A stretch of DNA of 64,000 bases from a phage. Shown here piece by piece: positions 8,771 to 46,602 of this stretch. The stretch is from sequence record PZ445429.1. One strand, 5' to 3'. A program made the position numbers and the translations under genes. The notes beneath the pieces were generated by a model. It was given only the letters and a program-made list of their open reading frames with translations. It was not told the DNA's origin and did no database searches. Position 1 is the first letter of the stretch, and each line of letters begins with the position of its first letter.

Positions 8771-9745
8771 TTAGTCGTATACTCGCTCTACTATACAAGG
8801 GATTACACCACCAGCACGAATCACTCGAATCTGGCAACCGATCTCTAAATCGAGAGCGTTAATATAATCAACGTTATTAAGAGTTGCTTTAACGATTGTG
8901 GCATCATCAATAATCACCGGTTCGAAATAACCAACTGGAGTTACTTTACCAGAAGCCCCTACTTGCCATTCAACTTTAACAAGTGTGGTAATTTCGCCTT
9001 CTTCATCCTCTTTAATAGCAAATGCACCACGAGGAAATTTATTAGTCCAACCTTCACGGAAGAATTTGTTGTTATCATTAATACGAACAACTTTACCATC
9101 TGTCGGAATCCATTTAAAGAAGGAACGAACATTAATAACTGTCAAGAAGTTCTCATTCTCTAGCCAAAGCATATCTTTTAAATAGGCTTCTGTAATACCG
9201 ACTGTTTCCGCTGAACACTGGATACCATATGCAACGAAGATTAAACCACCTTCACCAATACGTTGCATGAAATCATCACTATCTTTTAGGTTAATAGCAC
9301 CAGAAGCATAGTTACGTTTGTTCTCTACTTCTTTAGTAATGAGAACTTCACCAGTGATTTGAGTTGGTACTTTTTGGGAAATAGTTTTGGGGATGTTCAG
9401 CATTTTAACATTATGCGTTACATCATTCCCTAGAATACCGTTACCACGAGTTAACGCTTGAACAAACTCACCATTAATATATAATAGAGAAATCGCACAA
9501 CCATCTAACTTATCAGTTTCAACCTGACCAAGTGGGTTGAATGGAGCTTTATCACCACGATCGTAATAGACTTTCTGCAAAGAATACATACGATACAAAT
9601 GAGGGATATCACCTTTCGGTCCGATTTCTTCCTCTAGTGGGAATCTTTTAATCAGACGATCATATTCTTCATCGGAAATAAGACTCATTCCCTGGTAGTA
9701 CGCTTCTTGACAACGTTTAATAAAGTCTTTTACATTATTCATCAT
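8771..9745 (-). CDS. NAD-dependent DNA ligase, N-terminal part (adenylation plus OB fold)
   Basis: 324 aa; adenylation motif TDKLDGCAISLLY (KxDG); OB-like C-terminus. Confidence 0.85.
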   Translation of the reverse strand: MMNNVKDFIKRCQEAYYQGMSLISDEEYDRLIKRFPLEEEIGPKGDIPHLYRMYSLQKVYYDRGDKAPFNPLGQVETDKLDGCAISLLYINGEFVQALTRGNGILGNDVTHNVKMLNIPKTISQKVPTQITGEVLITKEVENKRNYASGAINLKDSDDFMQRIGEGGLIFVAYGIQCSAETVGITEAYLKDMLWLENENFLTVINVRSFFKWIPTDGKVVRINDNNKFFREGWTNKFPRGAFAIKEDEEGEITTLVKVEWQVGASGKVTPVGYFEPVIIDDATIVKATLNNVDYINALDLEIGCQIRVIRAGGVIPCIVERVYD

Positions 9746-12182: not shown

Positions 12183-12250
12183 ATTTAAACTCCTCTCTCA
12201 AATTTATGAATCTATTATACAGAAAAATTTTTCTGAAAGCAAATAAATTT

Positions 12251-17391: not shown

Positions 17392-17551
17392 CTCCCTCCT
17401 TAATAAGGAACTCTTTCCATTCTGCTGTATCCTCATAGATAACGCAGAAATCATCACTCTTCCATGAGAAGTCATCGGTAGCAAATTCGAAACGGTAGCA
17501 CCAACTACCGTCCGGCCATACTAAAAGATCACACATGCTCTTGCGGTGCAT
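17369..17551 (-). CDS. hypothetical small protein
   Basis: 60-aa ORF overlapping both neighbours; weak. Confidence 0.3.
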   Translation of the reverse strand: MHRKSMCDLLVWPDGSWCYRFEFATDDFSWKSDDFCVIYEDTAEWKEFLIKEGEYGEEDF

Positions 17552-18380
17552 AAATAGTTCCTTCCATAAAGGCTTCTACTTGACCAATGAAATGCTTGTT
17601 ACCAAAAACTTCGGCAGCTCCAGCACGCCATACAGTAACACCACGTTTCTCATACTCAAGCTGTTCATCATAACGAACTTGAGGATTAACAACCATCATC
17701 TTAGTTCCACGACATACAGCAGGAAATAATTCCCAGTTGAAGTTGATAACTTGGTTGCTACAACCCACCACAATAACCATGTCATTGCTAGTAAGAGTAT
17801 CAAACAGGTTGATTTGACCCATGTACCACGGAGCCGTCTCACCAAAGAATGTTACGTTTGGTTTTACCCATTCGTAATCCTCAGGGGCAATCGCAGTATA
17901 CCCAACATCTTCGATGATTTGGTTGCGACCCTGACGATAGATCACCTCTTTCAAGTACCCGTGAGCGTGAATGATTTCATCACGAGGGATACCAGCACGT
18001 TCCAGAAGGTCATCAACGTTAGTAGTGAAGTTCTTCACGCTATCCGCACCATAACGCTGGAACCATTCTGCAATTCGCAGATGGGCAATGTTAGGCTCAA
18101 CAGTCTGTAATTCCTGACGACGCATGTTGTAGAACTCATGAGTCTTGAGATATAGATCGTTACCATCTTCATCAATGCCAGGGAAACGAGCACTGAAGTA
18201 GTTAGGATCATCTTCACCACAGAAGCGACGGAAGCCAGCTTCAAAGTTAGGCAAGCTACATACTTCCTCTAGATCGTACTCATCCCACAAGGATTTCCCA
18301 CTAGCAGTATCAGTACGGAATGCACGGATACCACTATCAACACTTAAACCAGCACCACTAACAACGATTAGTCTACGCAT
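17529..18380 (-). CDS. Sir2-family NAD-dependent protein (no canonical zinc ribbon seen)
   Basis: 283 aa; GAGLSVDSGIRAFR, TTNVDDLLERAG, HAHG, FFGE, VVGCS motifs; no CxxC...CxxC module. Confidence 0.75.
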   Translation of the reverse strand: MRRLIVVSGAGLSVDSGIRAFRTDTASGKSLWDEYDLEEVCSLPNFEAGFRRFCGEDDPNYFSARFPGIDEDGNDLYLKTHEFYNMRRQELQTVEPNIAHLRIAEWFQRYGADSVKNFTTNVDDLLERAGIPRDEIIHAHGYLKEVIYRQGRNQIIEDVGYTAIAPEDYEWVKPNVTFFGETAPWYMGQINLFDTLTSNDMVIVVGCSNQVINFNWELFPAVCRGTKMMVVNPQVRYDEQLEYEKRGVTVWRAGAAEVFGNKHFIGQVEAFMEGTIYAPQEHV

Positions 18381-36477: not shown

Positions 36478-36552
36478 CGGGGTGTAGTCTAAAGGAGAGG
36501 CAGGAGTCTTCTAAATTCCTTTATGCAGGTTCGAATCCTGTCACCTCGGCCA
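36478..36552 (+). tRNA. tRNA-Arg (anticodon TCT)
   Basis: Hand-folded cloverleaf: acceptor CGGGGTG/CACCTCG, T-loop TTCGAAT, anticodon loop CTTCTAA, CCA encoded. Confidence 0.7.
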
Positions 36553-36585
36553 ATTTTATTAACTGTAATTAAACAAAGGAAATAT

Positions 36586-37530
36586 ATGTTTACTAAAAAC
36601 ACTAAAGAACTGACTTCTGAGCAAAAAGTAATTCGCACTATCAAACGTTGGGGTGTTGGTGCTGTATTTGGTCTTGGCGCTATTATTCTGGCTCTCAATT
36701 CCTACACAGTTGTTCAGGATGGTACTGTTAAGACTCAAACCTTCCTGGGTAAAGTTAGCCCGAACCCTGTACTGCCCGGCTTCCATATTGTTAACCCATT
36801 TGCTTCTTTTGATACTTTTAGTACGAAAGATATTTCTATGAAACTGGATAAACTTCAGGTTCCTAGCCAGGATAAGTTTAAGTCTACTGTTGACATTACC
36901 GTTATGTTGCAGTTTGATGGTGCTAAAGCTCCTATGAACCGTGTTAACGCAGGTACTCAGGATCAGGCTCTGAACAAGTACGTTGAAGAGAAGATGCTAT
37001 CTACGATTCGTGAGTTTGGTAAGTCTGTACCAAAAGCACAAGATCTGTTCGACGCTAAGATTCAGGCTCAACTGCAAACTGCTATTCAGCAAGAAGTAGA
37101 AGAGTATGCGCGTCCTTATGGTTACACCGTTAAGCAAGTATTCCTTCAGGATATTACTCTGCCACCGGTAATCATGGAACAGGTACAGAACACCAAAGTT
37201 CGTGAAGAACAAGTTAACGCTGCAAAAGCTGAACTGGCTCGTGTTGAACAAGAAGCACAGCAGAAAGTTAAGCAAGCTGAGGCAGATCGTTCCGCTCGTG
37301 AAAACATGGCAGTAGCTAACGAACGTGACGCAGATGCTAAACTGTACGCAGCTAAGAAAGAAGCTGAAGCTAACGCCGCTCTGCAACGTACCATTACTCC
37401 TGAAATGATTCGTTGGAAGCAGCTGGAAGTTGAAATGCTTCGTGCTGAAAAATACCAAGGTGGTGTACCGCAGACTGTTGTTGGTACTGGCTATGATGGT
37501 CAAATGATCATGGATATGCGTAACAAGTAA
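36586..37530 (+). CDS. SPFH/band-7 domain membrane protein
   Basis: ATG 36586; N-terminal TM WGVGAVFGLGAIILAL, SPFH core, Ala/Glu/Gln-rich coiled-coil tail; two terminator hairpins follow. Confidence 0.75.
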   Translation: MFTKNTKELTSEQKVIRTIKRWGVGAVFGLGAIILALNSYTVVQDGTVKTQTFLGKVSPNPVLPGFHIVNPFASFDTFSTKDISMKLDKLQVPSQDKFKSTVDITVMLQFDGAKAPMNRVNAGTQDQALNKYVEEKMLSTIREFGKSVPKAQDLFDAKIQAQLQTAIQQEVEEYARPYGYTVKQVFLQDITLPPVIMEQVQNTKVREEQVNAAKAELARVEQEAQQKVKQAEADRSARENMAVANERDADAKLYAAKKEAEANAALQRTITPEMIRWKQLEVEMLRAEKYQGGVPQTVVGTGYDGQMIMDMRNK

Positions 37531-37555
37531 TAGTTACACGTAATCTTCGAACCAA

Positions 37556-37590
37556 GCCCGCGTTTCCTCCGAGAGCGCGGGCTTTTCTGT
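37556..37590 (+). terminator. rho-independent terminator after SPFH gene
   Basis: GCCCGCG...CGCGGGC plus TTTTCTGT. Confidence 0.75.
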
Positions 37591-37600
37591 ATTTAAGACA

Positions 37601-37640
37601 AAAGAAAAGCCCCTTACCTTTCGGCAGGGGCTTTGTTTTT
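37601..37640. terminator. bidirectional terminator at a convergent gene junction
   Basis: AGCCCCT...AGGGGCT hairpin with T-runs on both strands. Confidence 0.65.
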
Positions 37641-37847
37641 GGTTTAGAACCATATACTCTTGTTACAGCAACCACCCATACGGGAGACCAATCTTGACTG
37701 AAAATCTACTCTAGGGGGCAGGATAAGAGTAGGCTTAAAGGCAAACGGATTGAACACCGGTATTTGCGTAAACATTGCTGGAGAGCAACAACGTGCTACA
37801 GGCATTGGGCAGCATGACGTAGGTTTTCTACAACACATATAAACTCC

Positions 37848-38267
37848 TTAGGATTTCTCCCCATTTTGCGCTTTTGCAACTTGACTTTGACAGAAACTGT
37901 TAAACTTACCCATAAGTGATACAAGTTGCTTTCCATCCTCTGTTTTAGCGAAGTCTTCGAAAAGGGCTAGAACAGCCTGTCCTTCCGCAGATACCTGCGG
38001 TTGTTGGGTTTGTTGAGTCATCTGCTGCTGTGGTTGCATTTGCTGAGGCATCATCTGCTGAGGCATCATTTGTTGCATTTGCATTTGCGGCTGCATTTGC
38101 ATCTGGTTGATGTTTCCCTGCGGGTTTTGCAGGGAATTTTGCATTTGCTGTGCTTCTGCCAATCTCTGTTGCAACTGTTGTAAGTAGGGGTTATCAAGCC
38201 CCGGAACGGGCTGCTGGGAGCCCATACTTTGATTAAATCCGTTGTTCACAAAACCATATTTACTCAT
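37848..38267 (-). CDS. Gln/Met-rich low-complexity protein
   Basis: 139 aa, QMQMQPQMQMQQMMPQQ repeats; opposite strand to flanking genes; terminator downstream. Confidence 0.5.
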   Translation of the reverse strand: MSKYGFVNNGFNQSMGSQQPVPGLDNPYLQQLQQRLAEAQQMQNSLQNPQGNINQMQMQPQMQMQQMMPQQMMPQQMQPQQQMTQQTQQPQVSAEGQAVLALFEDFAKTEDGKQLVSLMGKFNSFCQSQVAKAQNGEKS

Positions 38268-38289
38268 GATGGGCTCCTCCCCTTAATTA

Positions 38290-39285
38290 TTAAGCCGGCA
38301 GTTTAGCCTGCAGACCAGCCAGAGTCTGAGTGATAGCACCAAGACTTACAGCGATTTGGTTGATTACCTGACCGTTAGCACCACTACCCTGAGCGATAGC
38401 TTCACGCAGACGGCATTCGTTCAGTTCGTCCTGAATACGCGCAGTAGTTACACCAGCGATTGCAGACTGAAGTTCACAGCAGCATTCAGCGATCTGACGT
38501 TCCAGAGCGTTCTGGTTAGCACAAGCCTGAGCAGCTACAGCAGCGAACTGGTTGTTAGTCTGGATAGACTGAGCAAACATGATCTGAGCGGTATCGAACT
38601 TGTCTTGAGCACGTGCGATCTGGTTAGCAGCGAAAGCTTGATCCATCTGGCGAGAAAGATCGAACTGACCCTGAATAACGTTACGAGTTTCCTGACAGAT
38701 CTGGTTGGACAGGTTAGCACCAGTACCGTAGATCGTAGTCAGAAGCTGTTGAGTACTAGCAGCTTGAGCAGCTCCTACACCATTTACTGCACTCAGAACA
38801 GCACCAGTACCCTGATTAGCTTCAGTACGAGTAGTGTTGATTGCAGCTAGAATACTTGCAGTATCCTGGTTAGAAAGGATCGCGTCCACAGCAGTTCCCT
38901 CAGCGGCAACACCAGCACCGCGGCCAAAACCACCGAAACCACCGAATCCACCTGTTAATAGAGCACCGATTAAGATAGCTCCGAATAGACCCATACCTTC
39001 ACCACCGAAAGCACCGTTAGCAACTGCTGGGTAACCACCCATTAGGCCAGGGAAGCCACTAGTGAATACGTTTACTGGTTCTTGCATTTTATGTTTTCCA
39101 TGTTTATGACAATGTTCATCATCGTCATCTTCTTCATCATCTTCATCGTGTTCACGATGTTCTTTTTCGTAGGCTTTGACCTTCTCCCACTTTTTCTTGT
39201 CTGATTCTTCGTGACGACGCAGTTCTGCTGCTACGCCAGCGACCGTATCAGGACTCTTAGCTACTTCTTCTGTCATTTTTGACAC
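38290..39285 (-). CDS. glycine-zipper membrane protein with acidic/His-rich N-terminus and Gln/Ala-rich tail
   Basis: 331 aa; EHDEDDEEDDDDEHCHKHGKHK, GAILIGALLTGGFGGFGGFG, Q/A-rich C-terminus. Confidence 0.55.
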   Translation of the reverse strand: MSKMTEEVAKSPDTVAGVAAELRRHEESDKKKWEKVKAYEKEHREHDEDDEEDDDDEHCHKHGKHKMQEPVNVFTSGFPGLMGGYPAVANGAFGGEGMGLFGAILIGALLTGGFGGFGGFGRGAGVAAEGTAVDAILSNQDTASILAAINTTRTEANQGTGAVLSAVNGVGAAQAASTQQLLTTIYGTGANLSNQICQETRNVIQGQFDLSRQMDQAFAANQIARAQDKFDTAQIMFAQSIQTNNQFAAVAAQACANQNALERQIAECCCELQSAIAGVTTARIQDELNECRLREAIAQGSGANGQVINQIAVSLGAITQTLAGLQAKLPA

Positions 39286-39482
39286 CTCCTAGTATATAGA
39301 AAATGTGTGTCTCTTTGATCACTCATCCATAACATATACTTTACACTACCCCAGCGAAAATGTCAAGGGGTCTTTAAAAATTGCCCCCGGATTTTTAGTG
39401 GGGTAACAATTTCTGGACCTCACCACTCACCTGCTACCCTTAAGTGCCCTGCGATTTTCCACTAAAAAGTTTAAAAATTCGA

Positions 39483-39511
39483 TTGCTTGAATGCTAAATT
39501 CTCTATATAAT
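39483..39511 (+). promoter_or_regulatory. N25-type early promoter (nadR-like operon)
   Basis: TTGCTT, 17 bp, TATAAT then TATAAATTTGAGAGAGG. Confidence 0.7.
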
Positions 39512-39541
39512 ATATTTATAAATTTGAGAGAGGAATCAAAT

Positions 39542-40597
39542 ATGATTAAGACTGGTCTAGTAATTGGTAAGTTCGCACCATTAACGCGTGGTCATATTAA
39601 CCTAATAAACACAGCAGCAACTATGTGTGAACGAGTTATTGTTGTAGTTAGTCATGATAATCGTTGGCTGGATAAGCAGAACACACGTGATCAGGAAGTA
39701 TTACAGTTAAAGAATCGACTTCGTTGGTTAGAACAAACTTACGCGGATATTGAGCACATTTCGGTAGAGTACATTATTGAAGATGATATTCCTGAATATC
39801 CGAATGGTTGGCCGGAATATGCTAGAATCCTTAATGAAAATTACGGACATTTGCCTGAGATCACCATTTTCTCTAGCGAACTAGACTATGATGCAGAATA
39901 TAAGAAATATCTGCCGAAGTTTGGTCATTATATTGTAGATTCTGATCGGACTCGTGTTCCAATCTCAGCTACAATGATTCGTAATGATCTTATGAAGTAT
40001 TGGGAGTTTCTTCCTAGCGTAGTTCGTAAAGATTACGTGCGTAAGGTTGTAATCATTGGGACTGAAAGCTCGGGAAAGACTACTTTAACAAAATACCTTG
40101 CGAAGCTATACAACACTTCGTGGGTAGAAGAATATGGCCGAACGTATTGTGAAGTTGATCTAGTTGGTAACGAAAATCTACTTACCAGTGAAGATTATAG
40201 TAAAATTGCGTTCAGACACAAAGAGCTAGAGTTTGAAGCAGAACGTACTGCAAATAAGATCATGTTTGTGGATACAAATGCTTTTATTACTGAGTTCTAC
40301 CACAGACTTTATGAACATCGTAAGAATCCTGTGGTTACAGCAATTGCAAAAGAAGAACATTACGATTTAGTAATTGTTCTAGCGCCTACTGTTAAGTGGG
40401 TAGATGATGGTTTACGTATTAACTCCGATCGTTCAATTACTTCTGAACTGTTCGAGCAGATGAAGAAAGAATTTCCAAATCAGTTCCCTGAAGGGCGTAC
40501 TGTTTACATCGACTCCCCGGACTACAAAGTTCGTATGGACGAAGCAGTAAACGCAGTAGACTGGCTGATTCATCACTTTAACGTTGGAGAGTTTTAA
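39542..40597 (+). CDS. nadR: NadR-like bifunctional NMN adenylyltransferase / ribosylnicotinamide kinase (no HTH domain)
   Basis: ATG 39542; GKFAPLTRGH motif, C-terminal Walker A GTESSGKTT. Confidence 0.8.
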   Translation: MIKTGLVIGKFAPLTRGHINLINTAATMCERVIVVVSHDNRWLDKQNTRDQEVLQLKNRLRWLEQTYADIEHISVEYIIEDDIPEYPNGWPEYARILNENYGHLPEITIFSSELDYDAEYKKYLPKFGHYIVDSDRTRVPISATMIRNDLMKYWEFLPSVVRKDYVRKVVIIGTESSGKTTLTKYLAKLYNTSWVEEYGRTYCEVDLVGNENLLTSEDYSKIAFRHKELEFEAERTANKIMFVDTNAFITEFYHRLYEHRKNPVVTAIAKEEHYDLVIVLAPTVKWVDDGLRINSDRSITSELFEQMKKEFPNQFPEGRTVYIDSPDYKVRMDEAVNAVDWLIHHFNVGEF

Positions 40598-40598
40598 T

Positions 40599-41276
40599 AT
40601 GACTAACTATCTTGTAAATGACTTTAAAAACTGGAAACCTTTGGAATATCTGTGGCTGTTTATAGCAGTCGCCTTTATTAGTTTAGCAAACTATAATGGT
40701 ACAGCTCTAGATTGGGCTACTGCAATAACCAATGTGGTTTGTGTTATTCTGGTTGCAAAAGGACGTGTTTCCAACTATATTTGGGGCTTAGTGGGTGTTC
40801 TTACATACGGTATTACAGCTTTAAACGCAGATCTTTATGGTAATGCTGCACTAAACCTGCTATACTACGTTCCTATGCAGTTTTATGGAATGTACTTATG
40901 GCATAAAAATAAGCCAAGTAATCTGCCAGATGTTCCAACTAAGGTTCTGAATAAAGCCCAAGCTCTGCTGACTCTAGGGATTCTAGCAGTAGCTACTTTA
41001 GGTTACGGCAGCTTCCTTGCTACTACCGCTGATCCATTCCCAATGCTTGACGCATTTACTGCGGTTGGTAGTGTGATTGCTATGTGGCTTATGGTCAAAC
41101 AATATGCTGAACAATGGCTGATTTGGATTGTTATTAACATTGGTACTGTGTACATTTGGCTTGTAACTGCTCAATCTACAGGTGCATCTTACGCAATCCT
41201 AGCAATGTGGCTAGTATTCTTAGGCAACTCTATTCTTGGAGCTTATAAAGGATACTTTGTACGCGTTAACAAATAA
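40599..41276 (+). CDS. pnuC: PnuC-like nicotinamide riboside transporter
   Basis: ATG 40599; polytopic membrane protein with SNYIWGL motif; adjacent to nadR-like gene. Confidence 0.7.
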   Translation: MTNYLVNDFKNWKPLEYLWLFIAVAFISLANYNGTALDWATAITNVVCVILVAKGRVSNYIWGLVGVLTYGITALNADLYGNAALNLLYYVPMQFYGMYLWHKNKPSNLPDVPTKVLNKAQALLTLGILAVATLGYGSFLATTADPFPMLDAFTAVGSVIAMWLMVKQYAEQWLIWIVINIGTVYIWLVTAQSTGASYAILAMWLVFLGNSILGAYKGYFVRVNK

Positions 41277-41283
41277 AGTAGTT

Positions 41284-41310
41284 ATAGCCCTCTAAGCGAG
41301 GGCTATTATA
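41284..41310 (+). terminator. terminator-like hairpin after pnuC
   Basis: AGCCCTC-TAAGC-GAGGGCT then ATTATA; weak U-tract. Confidence 0.45.
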
Positions 41311-41323
41311 CAGAAATTTTCAC

Positions 41324-41352
41324 TTGCTTAATATAGAAAATTTCTGTATAAT
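41324..41352 (+). promoter_or_regulatory. N25-type early promoter
   Basis: TTGCTT, 17 bp, TATAAT then ATAAATTCGAGAGAGAGAGG. Confidence 0.7.
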
Positions 41353-41386
41353 ATATTTATAAATTCGAGAGAGAGAGGAATCAAAC

Positions 41387-41683
41387 ATGAAACGCATTGT
41401 ACTTGCATTGACTCTAGTATCTACTTCTGTATTTGCTGCTCCGCAACAGGAACTTTGTCAAGTTCAGGTTTGTAATAAGTTAGAACGATTTACTTTGGAT
41501 ATTTGGTCACACATTAAAGATAATATGGGTGAACAGTGTTTTGATATTGTTCTGCCAAAAGAGCAGGCTGTTCCTGGTGCTGTTCTTAGCTCAGAGTCAC
41601 GTTGGTGGCAGGGTTCTTCTATCAACCCAACTAAGAAGTCAGTGACACGTATCAAACAGGTATATCAGTGCAATGTTCAGTAA
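41387..41683 (+). CDS. secreted small protein
   Basis: 98 aa, signal peptide MKRIVLALTLVSTSVFA. Confidence 0.5.
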   Translation: MKRIVLALTLVSTSVFAAPQQELCQVQVCNKLERFTLDIWSHIKDNMGEQCFDIVLPKEQAVPGAVLSSESRWWQGSSINPTKKSVTRIKQVYQCNVQ

Positions 41684-41691
41684 AATTTCAC

Positions 41692-41720
41692 TTGCTTAAT
41701 GCCGAAATTTTCTGTATAAT
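41692..41720 (+). promoter_or_regulatory. N25-type promoter driving tRNA-Ser/tRNA-CAT
   Basis: TTGCTT, 17 bp, TATAAT; tRNA begins ~15 nt downstream. Confidence 0.7.
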
Positions 41721-41734
41721 ATATTCATAAATTT

Positions 41735-41828
41735 GGAAGATTAACCCTAAAGGTAAGGGAGCTGTTTGCTAAACAGCCAGTAACTGTGGATACACGGTGT
41801 GCCAGTTCGAATCTGGCATCTTCCTCCA
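41735..41828 (+). tRNA. tRNA-Ser (GCT), type II
   Basis: Acceptor GGAAGAT/ATCTTCC, T-arm GCCAG-TTCGAAT-CTGGC, loop TTGCTAA, long variable arm, CCA. Confidence 0.75.
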
Positions 41829-41833
41829 AATTT

Positions 41834-41911
41834 GGTTCTCAAGCTCATTTGGTATGAGCCGTCGCCTCATAAGCGAAAGGTAGGTAGGTTCGAATCCTCC
41901 GGGAGCCACCA
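41834..41911 (+). tRNA. tRNA with CAT anticodon (Met or Ile2)
   Basis: Acceptor GGTTCTC/GGGAGCC, D-stem GCTC/GAGC, loop CTCATAA, CCA. Confidence 0.65.
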
Positions 41912-41928
41912 ATTAATTAGGAGACTAT

Positions 41929-42114
41929 ATGTCTAGATTCTACGAAATGAAGAAAGCATTAGAAGAATGTCGGTGTAAGGACTGTCATGGTGGTGGTAGG
42001 CAGGATGATGCAGAACCTGGGGATATTTTCTGTAGAGAATGGGAATGTCCTACATGTAAAGGTACTGGTATCAACCCTGAATATGCAATTTGTCTAGACA
42101 TTGAGCGAGGCTAA
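41929..42114 (+). CDS. small zinc-ribbon protein
   Basis: 61 aa; CRCKDCHGG...CPTCKG. Confidence 0.45.
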   Translation: MSRFYEMKKALEECRCKDCHGGGRQDDAEPGDIFCREWECPTCKGTGINPEYAICLDIERG

Positions 42115-42454
42115 GATGGATATTTTTACTACTCCGGCAATAAACCTTTTAGGTGTTGGCTTGTTCCAAGCTACGGTGTATCGTACTGATGATTCTACTG
42201 ATGTGGTAACGTTCATCGTACCTGAGTTCTTCCTAGAAAAGTTCTTTGAAGAGTTTGAGCAGTTCCGTGAAGAACACAATGCTCATTCCGATATGGAAGA
42301 TCTAGCAGCTATGTTCCCTGTGGTTTACGGCTATATCTTTGAAGGTAATGGCCTAGATCTTAATAAATCTGAACTCGTTGAACTTAACTGGGGCATCAAT
42401 TTTGAAGTTGGCTCTCCATTTCCTCGATATTTCCAGGGTTTAGAGATTCGATAA
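42101..42454 (+). CDS. hypothetical protein
   Basis: 117-aa ORF; stop 8 nt before a tRNA. Confidence 0.5.
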   Translation: MSEAKMDIFTTPAINLLGVGLFQATVYRTDDSTDVVTFIVPEFFLEKFFEEFEQFREEHNAHSDMEDLAAMFPVVYGYIFEGNGLDLNKSELVELNWGINFEVGSPFPRYFQGLEIR

Positions 42455-42462
42455 GATTACAT

Positions 42463-42539
42463 GGGGGTGTAATCGAATTGGCATAGGTACTGGACTTAAA
42501 ATTCAGGTTTTGTGGGTTCGAATCCCACCACCCCTACCA
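42463..42539 (+). tRNA. tRNA with TAA anticodon (Leu-type) but class-I short variable arm
   Basis: Acceptor GGGGGTG/CACCCCT, T-arm GTGGG-TTCGAAT-CCCAC, loop CTTAAAA, 5-nt variable region, A73, CCA. Confidence 0.6.
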
Positions 42540-42690
42540 AATTAAGGAAATAAAATGAAAGCTAGTAAGAAAGCACTACGTAAATTTATGTACTGTCGTT
42601 TTCATAGCATCAAGACTTCAACTAATGGTACGACTTATGATCGCTATGATCCTAAGTTTGGCTTACATTCTAAATAACTGGAGAAAACAA

Positions 42691-42897
42691 ATGGCTAATC
42701 CTGAAATTACGGCACAGCGCTTTATGCTAAAAGGTATTATTGCTGAAGCAGGCGTGACACAAGAAGTGGAAGATTTCCATAAGCAGTTCCTAAATATTCT
42801 CACTCAAGCCAAAGAGCTAGGAGAGAAAGAACATGGCGCGGCTATTATGGCAATCACATTGGTTGGGCTTGATCTGGCAGAAGAATCAGGAGTTTAA
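42691..42897 (+). CDS. hypothetical small protein
   Basis: ATG 42691 preceded by GGAGAAAAC. Confidence 0.45.
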   Translation: MANPEITAQRFMLKGIIAEAGVTQEVEDFHKQFLNILTQAKELGEKEHGAAIMAITLVGLDLAEESGV

Positions 42898-42927
42898 CTC
42901 CTCCAAGCAGAAATTTTAAAAATGTAC

Positions 42928-42957
42928 TTGCCTTTTGCTTTAAATTTCTGGTATAAT
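42928..42957 (+). promoter_or_regulatory. N25-type early promoter
   Basis: TTGCCT, 18 bp, TATAAT then TATAAATTGATGAAGGAG. Confidence 0.6.
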
Positions 42958-42987
42958 AGTTATATAAATTGATGAAGGAGTTAACGA

Positions 42988-43263
42988 ATGCAAAATCGTG
43001 TTATAGCAACTGGTATTGAAAGTGCAATCTGTAAATCCTGGGAAGGCTGGGAAGGTGAGATTGAATGGCTTTATTTCTACGATGTAGAACTTCTGCCGGA
43101 AGTTAAAGCTAAATGTGTTGAAGCTGGCATGGCTCCAGATGCAAAAGCTGATATTGATATTTCAATGTCTGAACTTAAAGGTCGTGTAATTACTGTTAGT
43201 GATGAGGGCGAAGAAGTTTTCGAACTTCCATTCTCCTTAACTGTCACTCCTAAGTTCGATTAA
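42988..43263 (+). CDS. hypothetical protein
   Basis: 91-aa ORF, promoter plus RBS GAAGGAG. Confidence 0.5.
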   Translation: MQNRVIATGIESAICKSWEGWEGEIEWLYFYDVELLPEVKAKCVEAGMAPDAKADIDISMSELKGRVITVSDEGEEVFELPFSLTVTPKFD

Positions 43264-43299
43264 CTAATACAGCACTTAGCAAGTTCTTTAAAATTTGAC

Positions 43300-43328
43300 T
43301 TGCTCAGTGCCTTAAAACTTGATATAAT
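43300..43328 (+). promoter_or_regulatory. promoter driving tRNA-Tyr/Glu/Trp/Phe cluster
   Basis: TTGCTC, 17 bp, TATAAT; ~120-nt leader before first tRNA. Confidence 0.6.
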
Positions 43329-43453
43329 AGTTATCTAATTTGGAAAACATATCTGAATGAGAAGTAACTAAGCGAGTTGCTTTTAGGGGTAAAGTCAGGA
43401 TTTCCTGAAATATTCCACTTTGAGTTTAACCGACTTACTTTTCATTCAAATAT

Positions 43454-43534
43454 GGGGGATTGGCTCAGTGGCGACGGCGCCTGGCTGTAGACCGGGTATA
43501 TCACGCGGAGGTTCGAGTCCTCCATCCCCCACCA
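43454..43534 (+). tRNA. tRNA-Tyr (GTA)
   Basis: Acceptor GGGGGAT/ATCCCCC, T-arm GGAGG-TTCGAGT-CCTCC, loop CTGTAGA, 10-nt variable arm, CCA. Confidence 0.7.
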
Positions 43535-43542
43535 AAATTAAT

Positions 43543-43617
43543 GCACCTATCGTCTAATGGTTAGGACATCAGGATTTCAATCTGAGAATCGGAGTTCAAT
43601 TCTCCGTGGGTGTGCCA
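43543..43617 (+). tRNA. tRNA-Glu (TTC)
   Basis: Acceptor GCACCTA/TGGGTGT, D-stem GTCT/GGAC, loop ATTTCAA, T-loop TTCAATT, CCA. Confidence 0.7.
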
Positions 43618-43626
43618 ATTAATAAT

Positions 43627-43697
43627 TGGGGTACGCATAGGTTGCTAGTGGGCCTCCAAAACCCATGAAAAGGTTTCGAATACCTTTACCCCTGCCA
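43627..43697 (+). tRNA. tRNA-Trp-like (CCA), irregular D-arm
   Basis: T-arm AAGGT-TTCGAAT-ACCTT, 3' TACCCCT-G-CCA, loop CTCCAAA; short, U1-U72 mismatch; may be degenerate. Confidence 0.45.
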
Positions 43698-43703
43698 ATA
43701 TTT

Positions 43704-43778
43704 GCACCTTTAGCTGAGATGGATTAGCGCTTGCCTGAAGAGCTTGAGAGGTTGGATCGTTACCAACGGGGTGCACCA
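43704..43778 (+). tRNA. tRNA-Phe-like (GAA)
   Basis: Acceptor GCACCTT/GGGGTGC, D-stem GCTG/TAGC, loop CTGAAGA; two U-U mismatches in anticodon stem, non-canonical T-loop ATCGTTA. Confidence 0.5.
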
Positions 43779-43795
43779 ATTTGAAGGAGATGCTG

Positions 43796-44068
43796 ATGCA
43801 TCCTGAAAACTTCTTTATTTACTGTGCGGATAAGTCATTAAAACGCAGAATTAATAAAGTCTATCATTATCGTGCCAGTCAACAGCCTTATGTTTATGCT
43901 TTTGACGGAGATCACATCCCACTAGAACAATTGGCATGTGATTACATGGTATTGAAGAACTTTGACGAGACAAAGATCTCAAGCGTTCATAATCGACAGA
44001 ACCCGTTAACGTGGAAATATAAGAAGAAAAAGAAAGGCATCATATTTCTGAAAAATGTAGTTGCTTAA
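43796..44068 (+). CDS. hypothetical protein
   Basis: ATG 43796 six nt after AGGAG. Confidence 0.45.
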   Translation: MHPENFFIYCADKSLKRRINKVYHYRASQQPYVYAFDGDHIPLEQLACDYMVLKNFDETKISSVHNRQNPLTWKYKKKKKGIIFLKNVVA

Positions 44069-44089
44069 CCACTTAAAGTTCTGTATAAT
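44061..44089 (+). promoter_or_regulatory. N25-type early promoter
   Basis: TTGCTT (inside preceding ORF 3' end), 17 bp, TATAAT. Confidence 0.6.
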
Positions 44090-44118
44090 TATTACATAAG
44101 TTGAACTGGAGAAGCAAC

Positions 44119-44343
44119 ATGACAGAACAAGAATTGAAAGAACGTAAGCTGGTAATGCTTCGCTTACTAAACATTTTCTCTGGTATGGATGGTGGTATTG
44201 ACTTCATTCAACTACGCACTTTTGTAGAAGAAGCAGAAGGCGAGGCTATCACTAGGATTCTTAAACATATGGGTTTGTTACTAGATGCTGCTAATGTGGC
44301 TACTCAATATAAACTCAAAGATTTACCAGAGCGTGTTAAATGA
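44119..44343 (+). CDS. hypothetical protein
   Basis: ATG 44119 after RBS GGAGAAG. Confidence 0.5.
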   Translation: MTEQELKERKLVMLRLLNIFSGMDGGIDFIQLRTFVEEAEGEAITRILKHMGLLLDAANVATQYKLKDLPERVK

Positions 44344-44531
44344 AAATGTTAGTTAAATTTAAGTGTTGTGGTTCTGAACATATTTTCACTCGTTATAGAG
44401 AGTTTAAGATGTGTGAGTGTGGTAAGTCAGGCTATGATGCTGGAGATGGCTTTTATGCTAGATCTTTAGGACATTCTAAAGATCTAGAGTTTACTAATCT
44501 CGAAAAGCAAGATAAATCGACCGTTGGCTGA
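44340..44531 (+). CDS. small Cys-rich zinc-ribbon-like protein
   Basis: 63 aa, KCCGSEH...CECG; 3' end overlaps tRNA start by 14 nt. Confidence 0.45.
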   Translation: MKMLVKFKCCGSEHIFTRYREFKMCECGKSGYDAGDGFYARSLGHSKDLEFTNLEKQDKSTVG

Positions 44532-44593
44532 ATGGCTTAGGCGGAGGCCTGCAAAACCTCCTTATGTGAGTTCGAATCTCATGCGGTCGTCCA
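44518..44593 (+). tRNA. tRNA-Cys (GCA)
   Basis: Acceptor CGACCGT/GCGGTCG, T-loop TTCGAAT, loop CTGCAAA, CCA. Confidence 0.65.
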
Positions 44594-44599
44594 AATTTA

Positions 44600-44685
44600 G
44601 GGCCGTTGGCTGAATGGTTTAAGCGCCGGACTGTTAATCCGTATCCGCAAGGATAAAGTAGGTTCGACTCCTACACGGCCCGCCA
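44600..44685 (+). tRNA. tRNA-Asn-type (GTT) with unusually long variable region
   Basis: Acceptor GGGCCGT/ACGGCCC, anticodon arm CCGGA-CTGTTAA-TCCGT, 15-nt variable region with GCAA-loop hairpin, G73, CCA. Confidence 0.6.
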
Positions 44686-44712
44686 ATTTCATTAACAACT
44701 GAGGAAATAGAT

Positions 44713-44898
44713 ATGACAACTCGTGCAATTGCTCGACTAGAAGCTGATCGTGATAATCTGATTAATAATATTAAGGTTCGTGGTAATATTATTAAGGCTC
44801 TGAAAGCTGAACTTCTTGAAGAACTTCAAGGTCAAGTAGAGCGTCGTGAAGCTCTAAAAGAGGTTGAGGAAGCTATCGAAAAACTCAAGGCTGAATAA
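44713..44898 (+). CDS. hypothetical coiled-coil protein
   Basis: 61-aa ORF with RBS GAGGAAATAG. Confidence 0.45.
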   Translation: MTTRAIARLEADRDNLINNIKVRGNIIKALKAELLEELQGQVERREALKEVEEAIEKLKAE

Positions 44899-44901
44899 AT
44901 T

Positions 44902-45483
44902 ATGCACGGAATATCCTTACCCATTCCAGGGTTTGAGGAGTACTTAGTAAGTTTGGATGGGTTAGTATTTAGTATCAAATCAAACAAAATACTAACCCCA
45001 ATAACCAGTAATTACGGATACTTATCTATACGTCTCCATAAAAATGGTCAACAGAGAAATACCGGTGTACATAGGATTTTAGCATGTGCATTTAAGAAAT
45101 TACCAAGTCTAGACTCTGAACTAGAAGTTGACCATATTAACACAGACATTACTTATTGGGGTCTTAATAACTTACAAGTGCTCACAAAAGAGCAGCATCT
45201 AGAAAAGACTTTAAAAGACAAAGGATTTAGTAAACTAAACCATGATAATTGTTGTAAGGATTGTGGTAAAGCTATTTCTTTAAAAGCTGAAAAATGTCAG
45301 GAGTGCTCTTCACATAAACCAAAAGATATCTCTATAACTAAAGAAATAATCGAGGTTACAGTAAGAGAGCTAGGCTGGTCAGGTGCAGGGAGAAAGTTAA
45401 GTTATTCAGATAATGGGTTGCGTAAAAGATACACTTCTTTAGGAGGCAATCCTAAAGAACTTAAAAAGTTAAAGGTACTATAG
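44902..45483 (+). CDS. HNH homing endonuclease inside the tRNA cluster
   Basis: 193 aa; HNH core EVDHINTD...NNLQVLTKEQH plus zinc ribbon CCKDCG...CQEC; stop overlaps tRNA start. Confidence 0.7.
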   Translation: MHGISLPIPGFEEYLVSLDGLVFSIKSNKILTPITSNYGYLSIRLHKNGQQRNTGVHRILACAFKKLPSLDSELEVDHINTDITYWGLNNLQVLTKEQHLEKTLKDKGFSKLNHDNCCKDCGKAISLKAEKCQECSSHKPKDISITKEIIEVTVRELGWSGAGRKLSYSDNGLRKRYTSLGGNPKELKKLKVL

Positions 45484-45548
45484 TCTAACGGTTAGGATAC
45501 TCCCCTGTCACGGGAGAGGTAGGGTTTCGATTACCCTTAGTACCGCCA
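45474..45548 (+). tRNA. tRNA-Asp (GTC)
   Basis: Acceptor GGTACTA/TAGTACC, anticodon arm CTCCC-CTGTCAC-GGGAG, T-arm AGGGT-TTCGATT-ACCCT, CCA. Confidence 0.8.
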
Positions 45549-45554
45549 AATTAT

Positions 45555-45631
45555 ACATCCATAGCTCAATTGGTTAGAGCTACCGCCTCTTAAGCGGTAG
45601 GTTCTAGGTTCAAGTCCTAGTGGGTGTACCA
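45555..45631 (+). tRNA. tRNA-Lys (CTT)
   Basis: Acceptor ACATCCA/TGGGTGT, D-stem GCTC/GAGC, anticodon arm ACCGC-CTCTTAA-GCGGT, CCA. Confidence 0.8.
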
Positions 45632-45844
45632 AACATCAGAGCAGCGTGATGTACTGCAAAGACCCAAAGTCCGGGGTGGACTTCTTGATTCAAAGGAGCA
45701 GGCATTAATTATCATTCTAGCGTGGTGGAGAGGGGACACCAGCTTGCCGAGGGTAGAAGCTCGTTCGATTCGAGTGAAAGAATGGTTCTCGTAAATCCGC
45801 ACAAGTGATAGTAGGTTCAAGTCCTACCTAGATTGACTCATTAT
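45632..45844 (+). ncRNA. ORF-free tRNA-like region (candidate stable RNA or degenerate tRNA genes)
   Basis: 213 nt between two tRNAs; two T-arm-like hairpins (GCTCG-TTCGATT-CGAGT near 45757; GTAGG-TTCAAGT-CCTAC at 45811-45827) without a matching 5' acceptor strand. Confidence 0.3.
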
Positions 45845-45915
45845 GCGTTCGTAGTTAAAAGGTATAATTTTTGGTTGCCAACCAGAAGTTGAGGGTTCGA
45901 TTCCCTCCGACCGCA
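45845..45915 (+). tRNA. tRNA-Gly (GCC), no encoded CCA
   Basis: Acceptor GCGTTCG/CGACCGC (one mismatch), loop TTGCCAA, T-arm GAGGG-TTCGATT-CCCTC; 3' end ...A-CAA. Confidence 0.55.
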
Positions 45916-46173
45916 CAAAATCTTTGTAGGTCGCGTCACTTATAGTGGGACTACAGGGTAAACAAGGCGATGAGTTTCCGGCCGGTTCTAGTCGCTGAAA
46001 ATCCTCCCGACCAGGTAGGTGTAGGTAAACGAAAGTTTACTTATTGAGTAGGTTCCGATAGATCGGCGGGTCTATTCTGGCGTTTAAGAGAAGTCTCGCA
46101 AACTTCTTTGTCAGCCGTGGGGCTTGAACCCTCCAGGTGGCCTACGCAATAAGTAAATTTATTAAAAATTCAT
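45916..46173 (+). ncRNA. ORF-free structured region (candidate small RNA)
   Basis: ~255 nt, GC-richer than surroundings, hairpins such as GTAAAC-GAAA-GTTTAC; no ORF of 60 aa or more. Confidence 0.25.
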
Positions 46174-46202
46174 TTGCTATTTTGCTTAATTCTCTGTATA
46201 AT
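46174..46202 (+). promoter_or_regulatory. N25-type early promoter
   Basis: AAAAATTCATTTGCTAT...TATAAT. Confidence 0.7.
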
Positions 46203-46234
46203 ATATCTTATAAAGTGTTGAGAAGGAAAGCAAA

Positions 46235-46432
46235 ATGAAAAAAGTTATGTTACTATCTGTATTCTTACTCACTGGTTGCTTTAAATTTGATTCAACCATT
46301 AACAAGGAGTATGAATTTGCAAAAAATTTCTGTGGTGGAGAGAGTAAAATACAAAACTTCAGTATACACTCTACAATTCCTAGTACCATTTACTGCATAG
46401 ATGGACGGAATATTAATATTCCACCACAATAA
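46235..46432 (+). CDS. small lipoprotein
   Basis: 65 aa; lipobox LLTGC. Confidence 0.55.
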   Translation: MKKVMLLSVFLLTGCFKFDSTINKEYEFAKNFCGGESKIQNFSIHSTIPSTIYCIDGRNINIPPQ

Positions 46433-46441
46433 AAGAATATT

Positions 46442-46518
46442 CTCCGATTAGCTCAATTGGCTAGAGTACACCGTTTGGGGCGGTGGGGTTGAAGGTTCGA
46501 GTCCTTCATTGGAGACCA
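46442..46518 (+). tRNA. tRNA-Pro (TGG)
   Basis: Acceptor CTCCGAT/ATTGGAG, anticodon arm CACCG-TTTGGGG-CGGTG, T-arm GAAGG-TTCGAGT-CCTTC, CCA. Confidence 0.8.
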
Positions 46519-46524
46519 AACAAT

Positions 46525-46602
46525 TGCGGGTTAGATCTTTGGTAGAGATCGCTAGTCTCATAAGCTAGAAAGAGGTAGGTTCGATTCCTACACCCGCTTC
46601 CA
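46525..46602 (+). tRNA. tRNA with CAT anticodon (Met or Ile2), U1-U72 mismatch
   Basis: Acceptor TGCGGGT/ACCCGCT, D-stem GATC/GATC, anticodon arm CTAGT-CTCATAA-GCTAG, CCA. Confidence 0.65.

What the first reader, a model, noticed from the sequence alone, without database searches (positions are those of the whole stretch)
39542..41276. Phage-encoded NadR-like (NMNAT + ribosylnicotinamide kinase) and PnuC transporter operon
A single N25-type promoter (39483-39511) drives a NadR homolog lacking the HTH domain (TRGH motif plus C-terminal Walker A GTESSGKTT) and an overlapping PnuC-like transporter. Together these form a nicotinamide-riboside uptake and NAD-synthesis route, plausibly supplying NAD for the NAD-dependent ligase or countering host NAD depletion.
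Basis: partly seen in the sequence, partly recalled or inferred. Interest (0 to 1): 0.6.

Follow-up and report, generated by a model that had tools for sequence, protein, structure and literature searches.

The report
Phage NAD-rebuilding operon NARP3 (known)
This T5-like Salmonella/E. coli phage carries a two-gene operon that imports nicotinamide riboside and turns it into NAD+; it is real and correctly read, but it is the same system that was published in August 2026 as the phage counter-defence pathway "NARP3".

Summary
A T5-type early promoter (39483-39524) precedes a 351-aa NadR-like enzyme (39542-40597: NMN adenylyltransferase plus ribosylnicotinamide kinase domains, no HTH). A 225-aa PnuC transporter (40599-41276) and a strong hairpin (41284-41306) follow.

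One detail is wrong. The two genes do not overlap: the nadR stop ends at 40597 and the pnuC ATG starts at 40599.

The window is an Epseptimavirus (T5-like), 99.8% identical to Salmonella phage EH3. Its NadR-like protein is 350/351 identical to Bas30_86 of phage TrudiRoth, whose crystal structures are PDB 9x6f and 9x6h. Its PnuC is 221/225 identical to Bas30_87. Every residue shown by mutagenesis to be essential is retained.

Yan et al. (Sci Adv 2026, PMC13464706) showed that this pair imports nicotinamide riboside, converts it to NMN and then NAD+, and rescues phages from Sir2-HerA and DSR1 NAD-depleting defences. Osterman et al. had predicted this in 2024. The finding is therefore already known.

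Still open:
- The function has never been tested in a native T5-like phage.
- The cassette includes a conserved secreted 98-aa protein (41387-41683) of unknown role. It also lies beside NadR/PnuC in two unrelated phage lineages.

The parts
39483..39524 (+). T5-type (N25-like) early promoter: -35 TTGCTT 39483-39488, 17-nt spacer, -10 TATAAT 39506-39511, conserved initial transcribed sequence ATATTTATAAATT
   Evidence: Sequence read. The motif occurs 25 times in the window against 0.03 expected. The site is colinear with the annotated T5 promoter P15a. Activity and timing are inferred, not measured.
39529..39534 (+). Shine-Dalgarno AGAGGA, 7 nt upstream of the nadR-like ATG
   Evidence: Sequence. 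A ribosome binding site is annotated at the same place in phage Stitch.
39542..40597 (+). NadR-like bifunctional enzyme, 351 aa: NMN adenylyltransferase domain (about residues 1-160) and ribosylnicotinamide kinase domain (about residues 166-351); no HTH domain
   Evidence: Pfam and NCBIfam matches and phrog_3462. It is 350/351 identical to PDB 9x6f/9x6h, which is Bas30_86. All 17 residues named in the paper are conserved. E 3.7e-55 to H. influenzae NadR 1LW7.
40586..40591 (+). Shine-Dalgarno GGAGAG for pnuC, inside the last codons of the nadR-like gene (translational coupling likely)
   Evidence: Sequence. A ribosome binding site is annotated there in Stitch.
40599..41276 (+). PnuC-type nicotinamide riboside transporter, 225 aa
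   Evidence: PF04973 E 2e-43 and TIGR01528 above cutoff; phrog_1880. E 1.3e-32 to N. mucosa PnuC 4QTN. It is 221/225 identical to Bas30_87 and retains N45, Q94 and N180.
41284..41306 (+). Hairpin after pnuC (9-bp G+C-rich stem, 5-nt loop), the likely operon terminator; its U-tract is poor
   Evidence: RNA fold -17.1 kcal/mol, z = -5.5, 0 of 200 shuffles fold as well. It is annotated as a terminator in Stitch and Sw2. The consensus terminator scan did not call it because the T-run is missing.
41324..41365 (+). Second copy of the same promoter type, driving ORF98. It is part of the same cassette relative to T5 but not of the nadR-pnuC transcript
41387..41683 (+). ORF98: secreted 98-aa protein of unknown function (signal peptide, 4 invariant Cys; phrog_6894), identical to bas30_0088. 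It is a cassette neighbour and has not been shown to belong to the pathway
   Evidence: Bas30_86/87 alone sufficed in the published assays.

Best explanation
This is the NARP3 NAD+ reconstitution operon of a T5-like (Epseptimavirus) phage.

Proposed mechanism, with each step marked as shown or inferred:
1. Host sigma-70 RNA polymerase transcribes the operon from a T5-type early promoter soon after infection. This is inferred from the sequence and from synteny with T5 P15a.
2. One mRNA yields the NadR-like enzyme and, by coupled translation, PnuC. This is inferred from the 1-nt gap and the Shine-Dalgarno sequence inside the nadR end.
3. PnuC sits in the inner membrane as a trimer and lets nicotinamide riboside (NR) from the periplasm diffuse in. 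NR binding and the need for N45, Q94 and N180 were shown for the 98%-identical Bas30_87.
4. The C-terminal kinase domain of the NadR-like enzyme phosphorylates NR to NMN with ATP, which traps it. The N-terminal adenylyltransferase domain then joins NMN and ATP to give NAD+. This was shown by HPLC/MS, crystal structures and mutants for Bas30_86, which differs at one residue, R260S.
5. Because the enzyme lacks the HTH repressor domain and is driven by a phage promoter, the route runs regardless of host NAD regulation. I infer that it also runs regardless of the host shut-off typical of T5-like phages.
6. The outcome is that NAD+ destroyed by NADase defences is replaced from external NR, so replication continues. 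This was shown with plasmid-borne Bas30_86/87 rescuing T7, lambda and Klebsiella phages from Sir2-HerA, and for DSR1; rescue depended on NR with EC50 of 3.6-5.6 uM. It has not been shown in a native T5-like phage.
For: Domain and family matches support both gene assignments. The NadR-like protein is 350/351 identical to the crystallised Bas30_86 and PnuC is 221/225 identical to Bas30_87. All residues shown essential by mutagenesis are conserved at the same numbers. The published biochemistry and counter-defence assays are in PMC13464706. The pathway was predicted earlier for BASEL phages. The promoter belongs to a 25-copy family and is syntenic to T5 P15a. The hairpin terminator is strong. The whole operon is conserved in 201 phage records. 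T5 itself has the NAD-dependent ligase and Sir2 but not the operon, so the operon is an accessory cassette rather than a replication requirement.
Against: The authors state that NARP3 could not be tested in its native phage. No deletion mutant of any T5-like phage has been reported in the papers I could search. The route needs micromolar external NR. It cannot recycle the ADPR and nicotinamide that NADases produce. The hosts already encode NadR and PnuC. All functional evidence comes from one study and from over-expression. Promoter timing here is inferred only.
Confidence: 0.85

Rival explanations
1. The operon is a general auxiliary metabolic module rather than a counter-defence. It raises NAD+ supply for the phage's own NAD-consuming enzymes (the split LigA-type DNA ligase and the Sir2-family protein) and for the heavy nucleotide metabolism of infection, whether or not the host has an NADase defence. 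This reading does not exclude the counter-defence reading; the question is which benefit is selected.
For: The window encodes NAD-dependent ligase subunit A (8771-9745, minus strand), subunit B (7789-8571, minus strand) and a Sir2-family protein (17529-18380, minus strand). The operon carries the same early promoter type as the replication genes. The native role is untested.
Against: T5 has ligA, ligB and Sir2 but no NadR, PnuC or ORF98 in the 22-72 kb examined, and it carries a different gene (T5.076) at the syntenic slot. The ligase therefore does not require the operon. The published phenotype is a rescue specifically from NAD-depleting defences.
Confidence: 0.25
2. The annotation is misleading. 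Either the enzyme is only an NMN adenylyltransferase, as most GenBank records name it, with a dead kinase domain, or the transporter carries another Pnu-family substrate such as thiamine, riboflavin or a deoxynucleoside.
For: Many records annotate only 'nicotinamide-nucleotide adenylyltransferase'. The score against TIGR01526 is below its cutoff (272.8 against 341.15). The first histidine of the HxGH motif is replaced (TRGH).
Against: The Walker A, Walker-B-like and WVDDGLR lid-like motifs are intact. PRK08099 and TIGR01528 are above their cutoffs. HPLC showed NR to NMN to NAD+ for the 350/351-identical protein, and NR binding with Kd 0.66 uM for the 98%-identical transporter. From general knowledge, T/HxGH variants are normal in this nucleotidyltransferase superfamily.
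Confidence: 0.03
3. NARP3 in T5-like phages is really a three-part cassette. The secreted ORF98 protein would act in the periplasm to support NR supply or uptake, or to protect it.
For: ORF98 lies in the same insertion relative to T5. It is 100% identical in TrudiRoth. Its homologues lie 0.3-3.5 kb from NadR-like and PnuC genes in 11 of 28 loci from three unrelated phage lineages. NadR-like and PnuC are the only other gene families shared across those lineages.
Against: Bas30_86/87 alone gave full rescue. Seventeen of 28 ORF98 loci, and three metagenome contexts, have unrelated neighbours. The two closest non-T5 NadR-PnuC operons lack it within 6 kb. About 790 phage records carry NadR-like genes but only 262 carry ORF98. 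No fold or family gives a functional clue.
Confidence: 0.12

Closest known systems
NARP3 (Bas30_86/Bas30_87 of Escherichia phage TrudiRoth; Yan et al., Sci Adv 2026, PMC13464706; PDB 9x6f, 9x6h)
   Same: Same genus (Epseptimavirus). Same gene order, and 96.3% DNA identity across the region from the promoter through ORF98. The NadR-like protein is 350/351 identical, PnuC 221/225, and the downstream ORF98 100%. All functionally tested residues are retained.
   Different: R260 here against S260. Four PnuC substitutions (A25V, N118T, V178A, L213M), none at the NR-binding residues. The upstream neighbour differs: the 331-aa T5.077-like gene on the minus strand is present here but not found in the 5-kb TrudiRoth region examined, which has a plus-strand gene (bas30_0085) in that position.
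Bacterial NadR-PnuC nicotinamide riboside salvage (H. influenzae NadR 1LW7, E. coli NadR 8x7f, L. lactis NadR 6gye, N. mucosa PnuC 4QTN)
   Same: Same two-domain enzyme (NMNAT plus RNK) and the same transporter family. Same chemistry: NR to NMN to NAD+. E-values are 4e-55, 1e-51 and 1e-43 for the NadR structures and 1e-32 for PnuC.
   Different: There is no N-terminal HTH repressor domain. The two genes are fused into one operon, whereas in E. coli they are at separate loci. The operon is driven by a phage early promoter. The motif is TRGH instead of HTGH.
NARP1 (Adps + Namat) and NARP2 (Nampt + NMNAT/Nudix, as in Vibrio phage KVP40)
   Same: All are phage-encoded two-gene routes that rebuild NAD+ and overcome NAD-depleting defences.
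   Different: NARP1 recycles ADPR and nicotinamide through ADPR-PP. NARP2 uses nicotinamide and PRPP. NARP3 uses imported NR, so it depends on an external precursor and includes a membrane transporter.
NadR-like/PnuC modules of other phages (Klebsiella jumbo phage FBKp24, Aeromonas phage ST4, Vequintavirinae such as GAP31, Serratia BF-like jumbo phages, ICP1 and other Vibrio phages)
   Same: The same two families, usually adjacent. NadR-like homologues occur in about 790 of 50,697 phage records and PnuC in about 783.
   Different: Identity is only 24-61%. Gene spacing and neighbours differ. None of them has been tested.

Membership tests
NARP3 (phage NadR-like + PnuC NAD+ reconstitution pathway) | NadR-type enzyme with NMNAT and RNK domains and no HTH domain | tested here: met
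   Pfam CTP_transf_like and AAA_28. PRK08099 at 256 bits (cutoff 201), aligned to model positions 65-407 only. 350/351 identical to Bas30_86.
NARP3 (phage NadR-like + PnuC NAD+ reconstitution pathway) | PnuC-type NR transporter immediately adjacent, on the same strand and in the same transcription unit | tested here: met
   PF04973 and TIGR01528 above their cutoffs. There is a 1-nt gap, one promoter upstream and one hairpin downstream. The transcript itself was not measured.
NARP3 (phage NadR-like + PnuC NAD+ reconstitution pathway) | Encoded by a phage genome | tested here: met
   99.8% identical to Salmonella phage EH3 and 99.3% to Stitch (Demerecviridae, Epseptimavirus).
NARP3 (phage NadR-like + PnuC NAD+ reconstitution pathway) | Residues shown essential by mutagenesis: enzyme K10, F11, S37, E80, P84, G89, F110, S112, D115, V139, I141, E230, D275; transporter N45, Q94, N180 | tested here: met
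   All are present at the same positions.
NARP3 (phage NadR-like + PnuC NAD+ reconstitution pathway) | NR to NMN to NAD+ activity, NR import, and rescue from NADase defences | not testable with these tools
   Shown for Bas30_86/87 only. Never tested in a native T5-like phage.
Bacterial trifunctional NadR (regulator plus enzyme) | N-terminal HTH DNA-binding domain acting as NAD-responsive repressor | tested here: not met
   The protein is 351 aa. The match to PRK08099 starts at model position 65, and no HTH family appears in Pfam or NCBIfam. It is a NadR-type enzyme, not a NadR regulator.
Bacterial trifunctional NadR (regulator plus enzyme) | Score above the equivalog-domain cutoff of TIGR01526 (nadR_NMN_Atrans) | tested here: not met
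   272.8 bits against a cutoff of 341.15. It is a divergent phage branch; PHROG 3462 matches at 8.7e-154.
Pnu transporter family, PnuC subfamily | Match to PF04973 and TIGR01528 above cutoffs, with homology to the solved PnuC | tested here: met
   148.7 bits (cutoff 27.3) and 120.6 bits (cutoff 42.45). E 1.3e-32 to 4QTN over residues 9-215. A crude hydropathy scan shows several hydrophobic stretches.
T5 early (N25-type) promoters | -35 TTGCTT, 17-nt spacer, -10 TATAAT and the conserved A+T-rich initial transcribed sequence | tested here: met
   Zero mismatches to the 42-nt pattern, which has 25 copies in the window against 0.03 expected. Colinear with the annotated T5 promoter P15a.
T5 early (N25-type) promoters | Early-class transcription by host RNA polymerase during infection | not testable with these tools
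   Inferred from sequence and synteny only.

The most novel reading that the evidence does not exclude
The NAD-rebuilding cassette of T5-like phages may have a third, periplasmic component. This would be the secreted, four-cysteine, 98-aa protein at 41387-41683 (phrog_6894, identical to bas30_0088). It was swapped in together with nadR-pnuC relative to T5. It is also found next to NadR-like and PnuC genes in Vequintavirinae and in jumbo phages of about 355-371 kb. It might aid NR supply or uptake when NR is scarce, a condition the published over-expression assays would not reveal. A secondary point: the cassette is bounded exactly by copies of the conserved early promoter, which suggests promoter-mediated module shuffling in T5-like genomes.
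Probability: 0.12. Interest if true: 0.5.

Novelty: already known. Interest (0 to 1): 0.2.

Why it matters
NAD+ depletion is one of the commonest bacterial anti-phage strategies, and NARP3 is one of three known phage routes that undo it. This window adds another natural carrier, a Salmonella/E. coli T5-like phage, with near-identical proteins, so it brings no new biology by itself. Its practical value is as a native system for the experiment the NARP3 authors could not do: deleting the operon in a T5-like phage. It also points to a conserved neighbour gene (ORF98) that nobody has examined.

Tried and rejected
- I guessed accession MZ501076 for Bas30 and it was not in the collection. TrudiRoth was later found as MZ501109.1.
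- Two paper searches failed because 'T5' is too short a search term.
It also did not call the hairpin a terminator, because the T-run is missing. Both features were confirmed by other means.
- A single-sequence locus search for ORF98 found only 3 loci. The alignment-based search found 26.
- I tested whether ORF98 is an obligate partner of NadR/PnuC and rejected it as a general rule. Seventeen of 28 loci, three metagenome contexts and the two closest non-T5 operons lack the association.
- I rejected the 368-aa ORF starting at 39491, because it starts inside the promoter, and the TTG 40584 start for pnuC.
- I considered the 'feeds the ligase' reading and ranked it lower, because T5 has the ligase without the operon.
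Full report
**What is in the sequence**

Between 39483 and 41306 on the plus strand there is a compact transcription unit.
- The promoter reads TTGCTT (39483-39488), a 17-nt spacer, TATAAT (39506-39511), then ATATTTATAAATT.
- An AGAGGA ribosome site at 39529-39534 precedes the ATG at 39542.
- The first ORF (39542-40597, 351 aa) ends with TAA at 40595-40597.
- One base later the ATG at 40599 opens a second ORF (40599-41276, 225 aa). Its GGAGAG ribosome site (40586-40591) lies inside the end of the first gene.
- A 9-bp G+C-rich hairpin follows at 41284-41306. It folds at -17.1 kcal/mol, z = -5.5, and none of 200 shuffles does as well.

That holds only for an upstream TTG at 40584. The ATG is the start annotated in the three GenBank records I examined, and it is the one that reproduces the published residue numbering. 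The 368-aa ORF that the mechanical list starts at 39491 begins inside the promoter and can be dismissed.

**The promoter**

The 42-nt pattern TTGCT-N18-TATAATA-NN-T-NN-ATAAATT, with up to three mismatches, occurs 25 times in the window. Shuffled sequence gives 0.03. The copy at 39483 has no mismatch. The generic sigma-70 scan missed this register because TTGCTT matches only three positions of TTGACA.

Alignment with phage T5 shows the window is colinear with T5 from 36478 to 39545. That stretch runs through the annotated T5 promoter P15a and its leader, up to the first bases of the start codon. The N25 orthologue itself is the copy at 12201-12242 on the minus strand, upstream of the D2 helicase homologue. 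Early timing is inferred from T5, not measured.

**The proteins**

The first protein matches Pfam CTP_transf_like (residues 7-147) and AAA_28 (168-314). It matches the NCBIfam NadR model PRK08099 at 256 bits (cutoff 201), but only over model positions 65-407, so the HTH domain is missing. It falls below the cutoff of TIGR01526 (272.8 against 341.15), which marks it as a divergent branch. PHROG 3462 matches at 8.7e-154.

Its motifs are GKFAPLTRGH (residues 9-18), ISATMIR (141-147), Walker A GTESSGKTT (173-181), MFVDTN (241-246) and WVDDGLR (286-292). They align with the corresponding stretches of H. influenzae and E. coli NadR.

The second protein matches PF04973 (2e-43) and the PnuC equivalog TIGR01528 (120.6 bits, cutoff 42.45). 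It matches the solved N. mucosa PnuC at 1.3e-32.

**Where the window comes from**

The region is 99.8% identical to Salmonella phage EH3, 99.3% to Stitch and 97.9% to the BASEL phage GreteKellenberger (Bas26). All belong to Demerecviridae, genus Epseptimavirus. In 201 phage records a single match covers at least 80% of the operon.

**It is the published NARP3 system**

A search of solved structures returned PDB 9x6f/9x6h at E 9e-241, with one difference in 351 residues. These are the structures of Bas30_86 from Escherichia phage TrudiRoth, reported in Yan et al., Sci Adv 2026 (PMC13464706).

I fetched TrudiRoth (MZ501109.1) and compared directly.
- The enzyme differs only at R260S.
- The transporter differs at A25V, N118T, V178A and L213M.
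- The downstream 98-aa ORF is identical.
- DNA identity across the region from the promoter through ORF98 is 96.3%.

All 17 enzyme residues and the three transporter residues the paper names are present at the same positions.

The paper reports the following.
- Bas30_87 is a trimer that binds NR with Kd 0.66 uM.
- Bas30_86 converts NR to NMN to NAD+ with ATP.
- The pair, but neither gene alone, restores NAD+/NADH and rescues T7 and lambda by 10^3- to 10^4-fold from E. coli and A. baumannii Sir2-HerA, and counters DSR1.
- Rescue depends on external NR, with EC50 of 3.6-5.6 uM, and extends to Klebsiella phages.

The idea had been stated earlier by Osterman et al., who listed BASEL phages carrying a NadR plus PnuC operon as an untested candidate pathway. 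A search for other uses of the name, or for competing work, found none.

**Mechanism, and what is shown against inferred**

Shown, for proteins 99.7% and 98.2% identical to these: NR binding by the transporter, the two-step synthesis of NAD+, the structure with NAD+ bound in the NMNAT site, and NR-dependent rescue from NADase defences.

Inferred here:
- early transcription from the T5-type promoter;
- a bicistronic, translationally coupled message;
- termination at the hairpin;
- the rationale that an HTH-less enzyme under a phage promoter escapes host NAD regulation and host shut-off.

Not shown anywhere: a phenotype in a native T5-like phage. The authors say so explicitly, and the paper contains no knockout of the operon.

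**The rival 'feeds the ligase' reading**

The window does encode phage NAD consumers:
- NAD-dependent ligase subunit A (8771-9745, minus strand);
- NAD-dependent ligase subunit B (7789-8571, minus strand);
- a Sir2-family protein (17529-18380, minus strand).

T5 has ligA, ligB and Sir2 as well. Yet it has no NadR, PnuC or ORF98 in the 22-72 kb I examined. At the syntenic slot it carries a different gene, T5.076. The operon is therefore an accessory cassette in the tRNA region and not a requirement of the ligase. A general supply role is still possible alongside counter-defence.

**The cassette and its third gene**

Homology with T5 breaks exactly at the nadR start codon. It resumes at 41706, inside the next promoter copy (41692-41733), which precedes tRNA-Ser and tRNA-Met. 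The swapped segment therefore holds two promoter-headed modules: nadR-pnuC, and a 98-aa ORF (41387-41683) with its own promoter copy (41324-41365).

This ORF has a signal peptide (MKRIVLALTLVSTSVFA/AP). It has no Pfam match and belongs to phrog_6894, of unknown function. Its homologues are 47-98% identical to the window protein, with four invariant cysteines and a conserved SESRW(Y/W)QGSxNPTKKSVTR stretch.

Evidence for a link with NadR/PnuC:
- Its homologues lie 0.3-3.5 kb from NadR-like and PnuC genes in 11 of 28 loci.
- These loci come from three unrelated lineages: T5-like phages, Vequintavirinae such as GAP31, and jumbo phages of 355-371 kb such as XbC2.
- NadR-like and PnuC are the only other families shared across those lineages.

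Evidence against a functional link:
- Seventeen loci have unrelated neighbours: RNA ligase, CapR-domain proteins, SPFH, DnaB and the RNR small subunit.
- Three metagenome contexts show no NAD genes.
- The two closest non-T5 NadR-PnuC operons, in Klebsiella phage FBKp24 (60.6% identical) and Aeromonas phage ST4 (48.6%), lack it within 6 kb.
- About 790 phage records have a NadR-like gene but only 262 have ORF98.
- Bas30_86/87 sufficed without it.
- An AlphaFold model (pLDDT 75.6) found no structural relative outside the family.

I record it as a lead with a probability of about 0.12.

**Verdict**

The system was predicted in 2024 and characterised biochemically, structurally and genetically (heterologously) in 2026, in a phage of the same genus with near-identical proteins. 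It is therefore already known, and the interest score is low. The residual interest lies in the untested native role and in the unexplained secreted neighbour.

Noticed in passing
window 41387-41683 (+), with its own promoter at 41324-41365: A conserved secreted 98-aa protein (signal peptide, 4 invariant Cys, motif SESRW[YW]QGSxNPTKKSVTR; phrog_6894; no Pfam match, no structural relative). It is identical to bas30_0088. It lies beside NadR-like and PnuC genes in three unrelated phage lineages (11 of 28 loci) but not in the other 17. Its function is unknown.
   Followed up: partly
window 39483-39524, 41324-41365, 41692-41733 and 22 further sites: There are 25 copies of a 42-nt T5-type early promoter with a conserved leader. 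Relative to T5, the nadR-pnuC-ORF98 segment replaces T5.076. The break-points fall exactly at the start codon after one promoter copy and inside the next copy. This suggests that the promoter repeats act as joints for module exchange.
   Followed up: partly
window 17529-18380 (-), 8771-9745 (-), 7789-8571 (-): The phage encodes its own NAD-using proteins: a Sir2-family protein (PF02146, phrog_2162) and a LigA-type NAD-dependent DNA ligase split into two genes (adenylation plus OB domains; HhH plus BRCT domains). T5 has the same set.
   Followed up: partly
window 38290-39285 (-): A divergently oriented 331-aa protein with an acidic/His-rich stretch and Gly-rich low-complexity regions. It has no Pfam match, belongs to phrog_8119 and is 90% identical to T5.077. 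It was not found in the 5-kb TrudiRoth region examined, where a plus-strand gene occupies that position.
   Followed up: no
L001 (Salmonella phage Stitch KM236244.1) against window 41735-46602: The Stitch record annotates its tRNA genes on the strand opposite to the flanking genes. ARAGORN on the window, and the Bas26 and Bas30 records, place them on the same strand as nadR-pnuC. This is probably an annotation error in that record.
   Followed up: partly
phage collection searches: The NARP3 paper reports 124 homologous operons. In the 50,697-record phage collection, 201 records carry the near-identical operon, and about 790 records carry a NadR-like gene and about 783 a PnuC gene. These include about 355-380 Vibrio phage records and phages of Gram-positive hosts. 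The module is therefore more widespread than stated.
   Followed up: partly
L004 (T5 NC_005859.1 37279-37797): At the slot occupied by the NAD cassette, T5 carries T5.076, a 172-aa protein annotated as primase with a Toprim/OLD-family-like region. This variable slot may hold alternative accessory or counter-defence genes in different T5-like phages.
   Followed up: no
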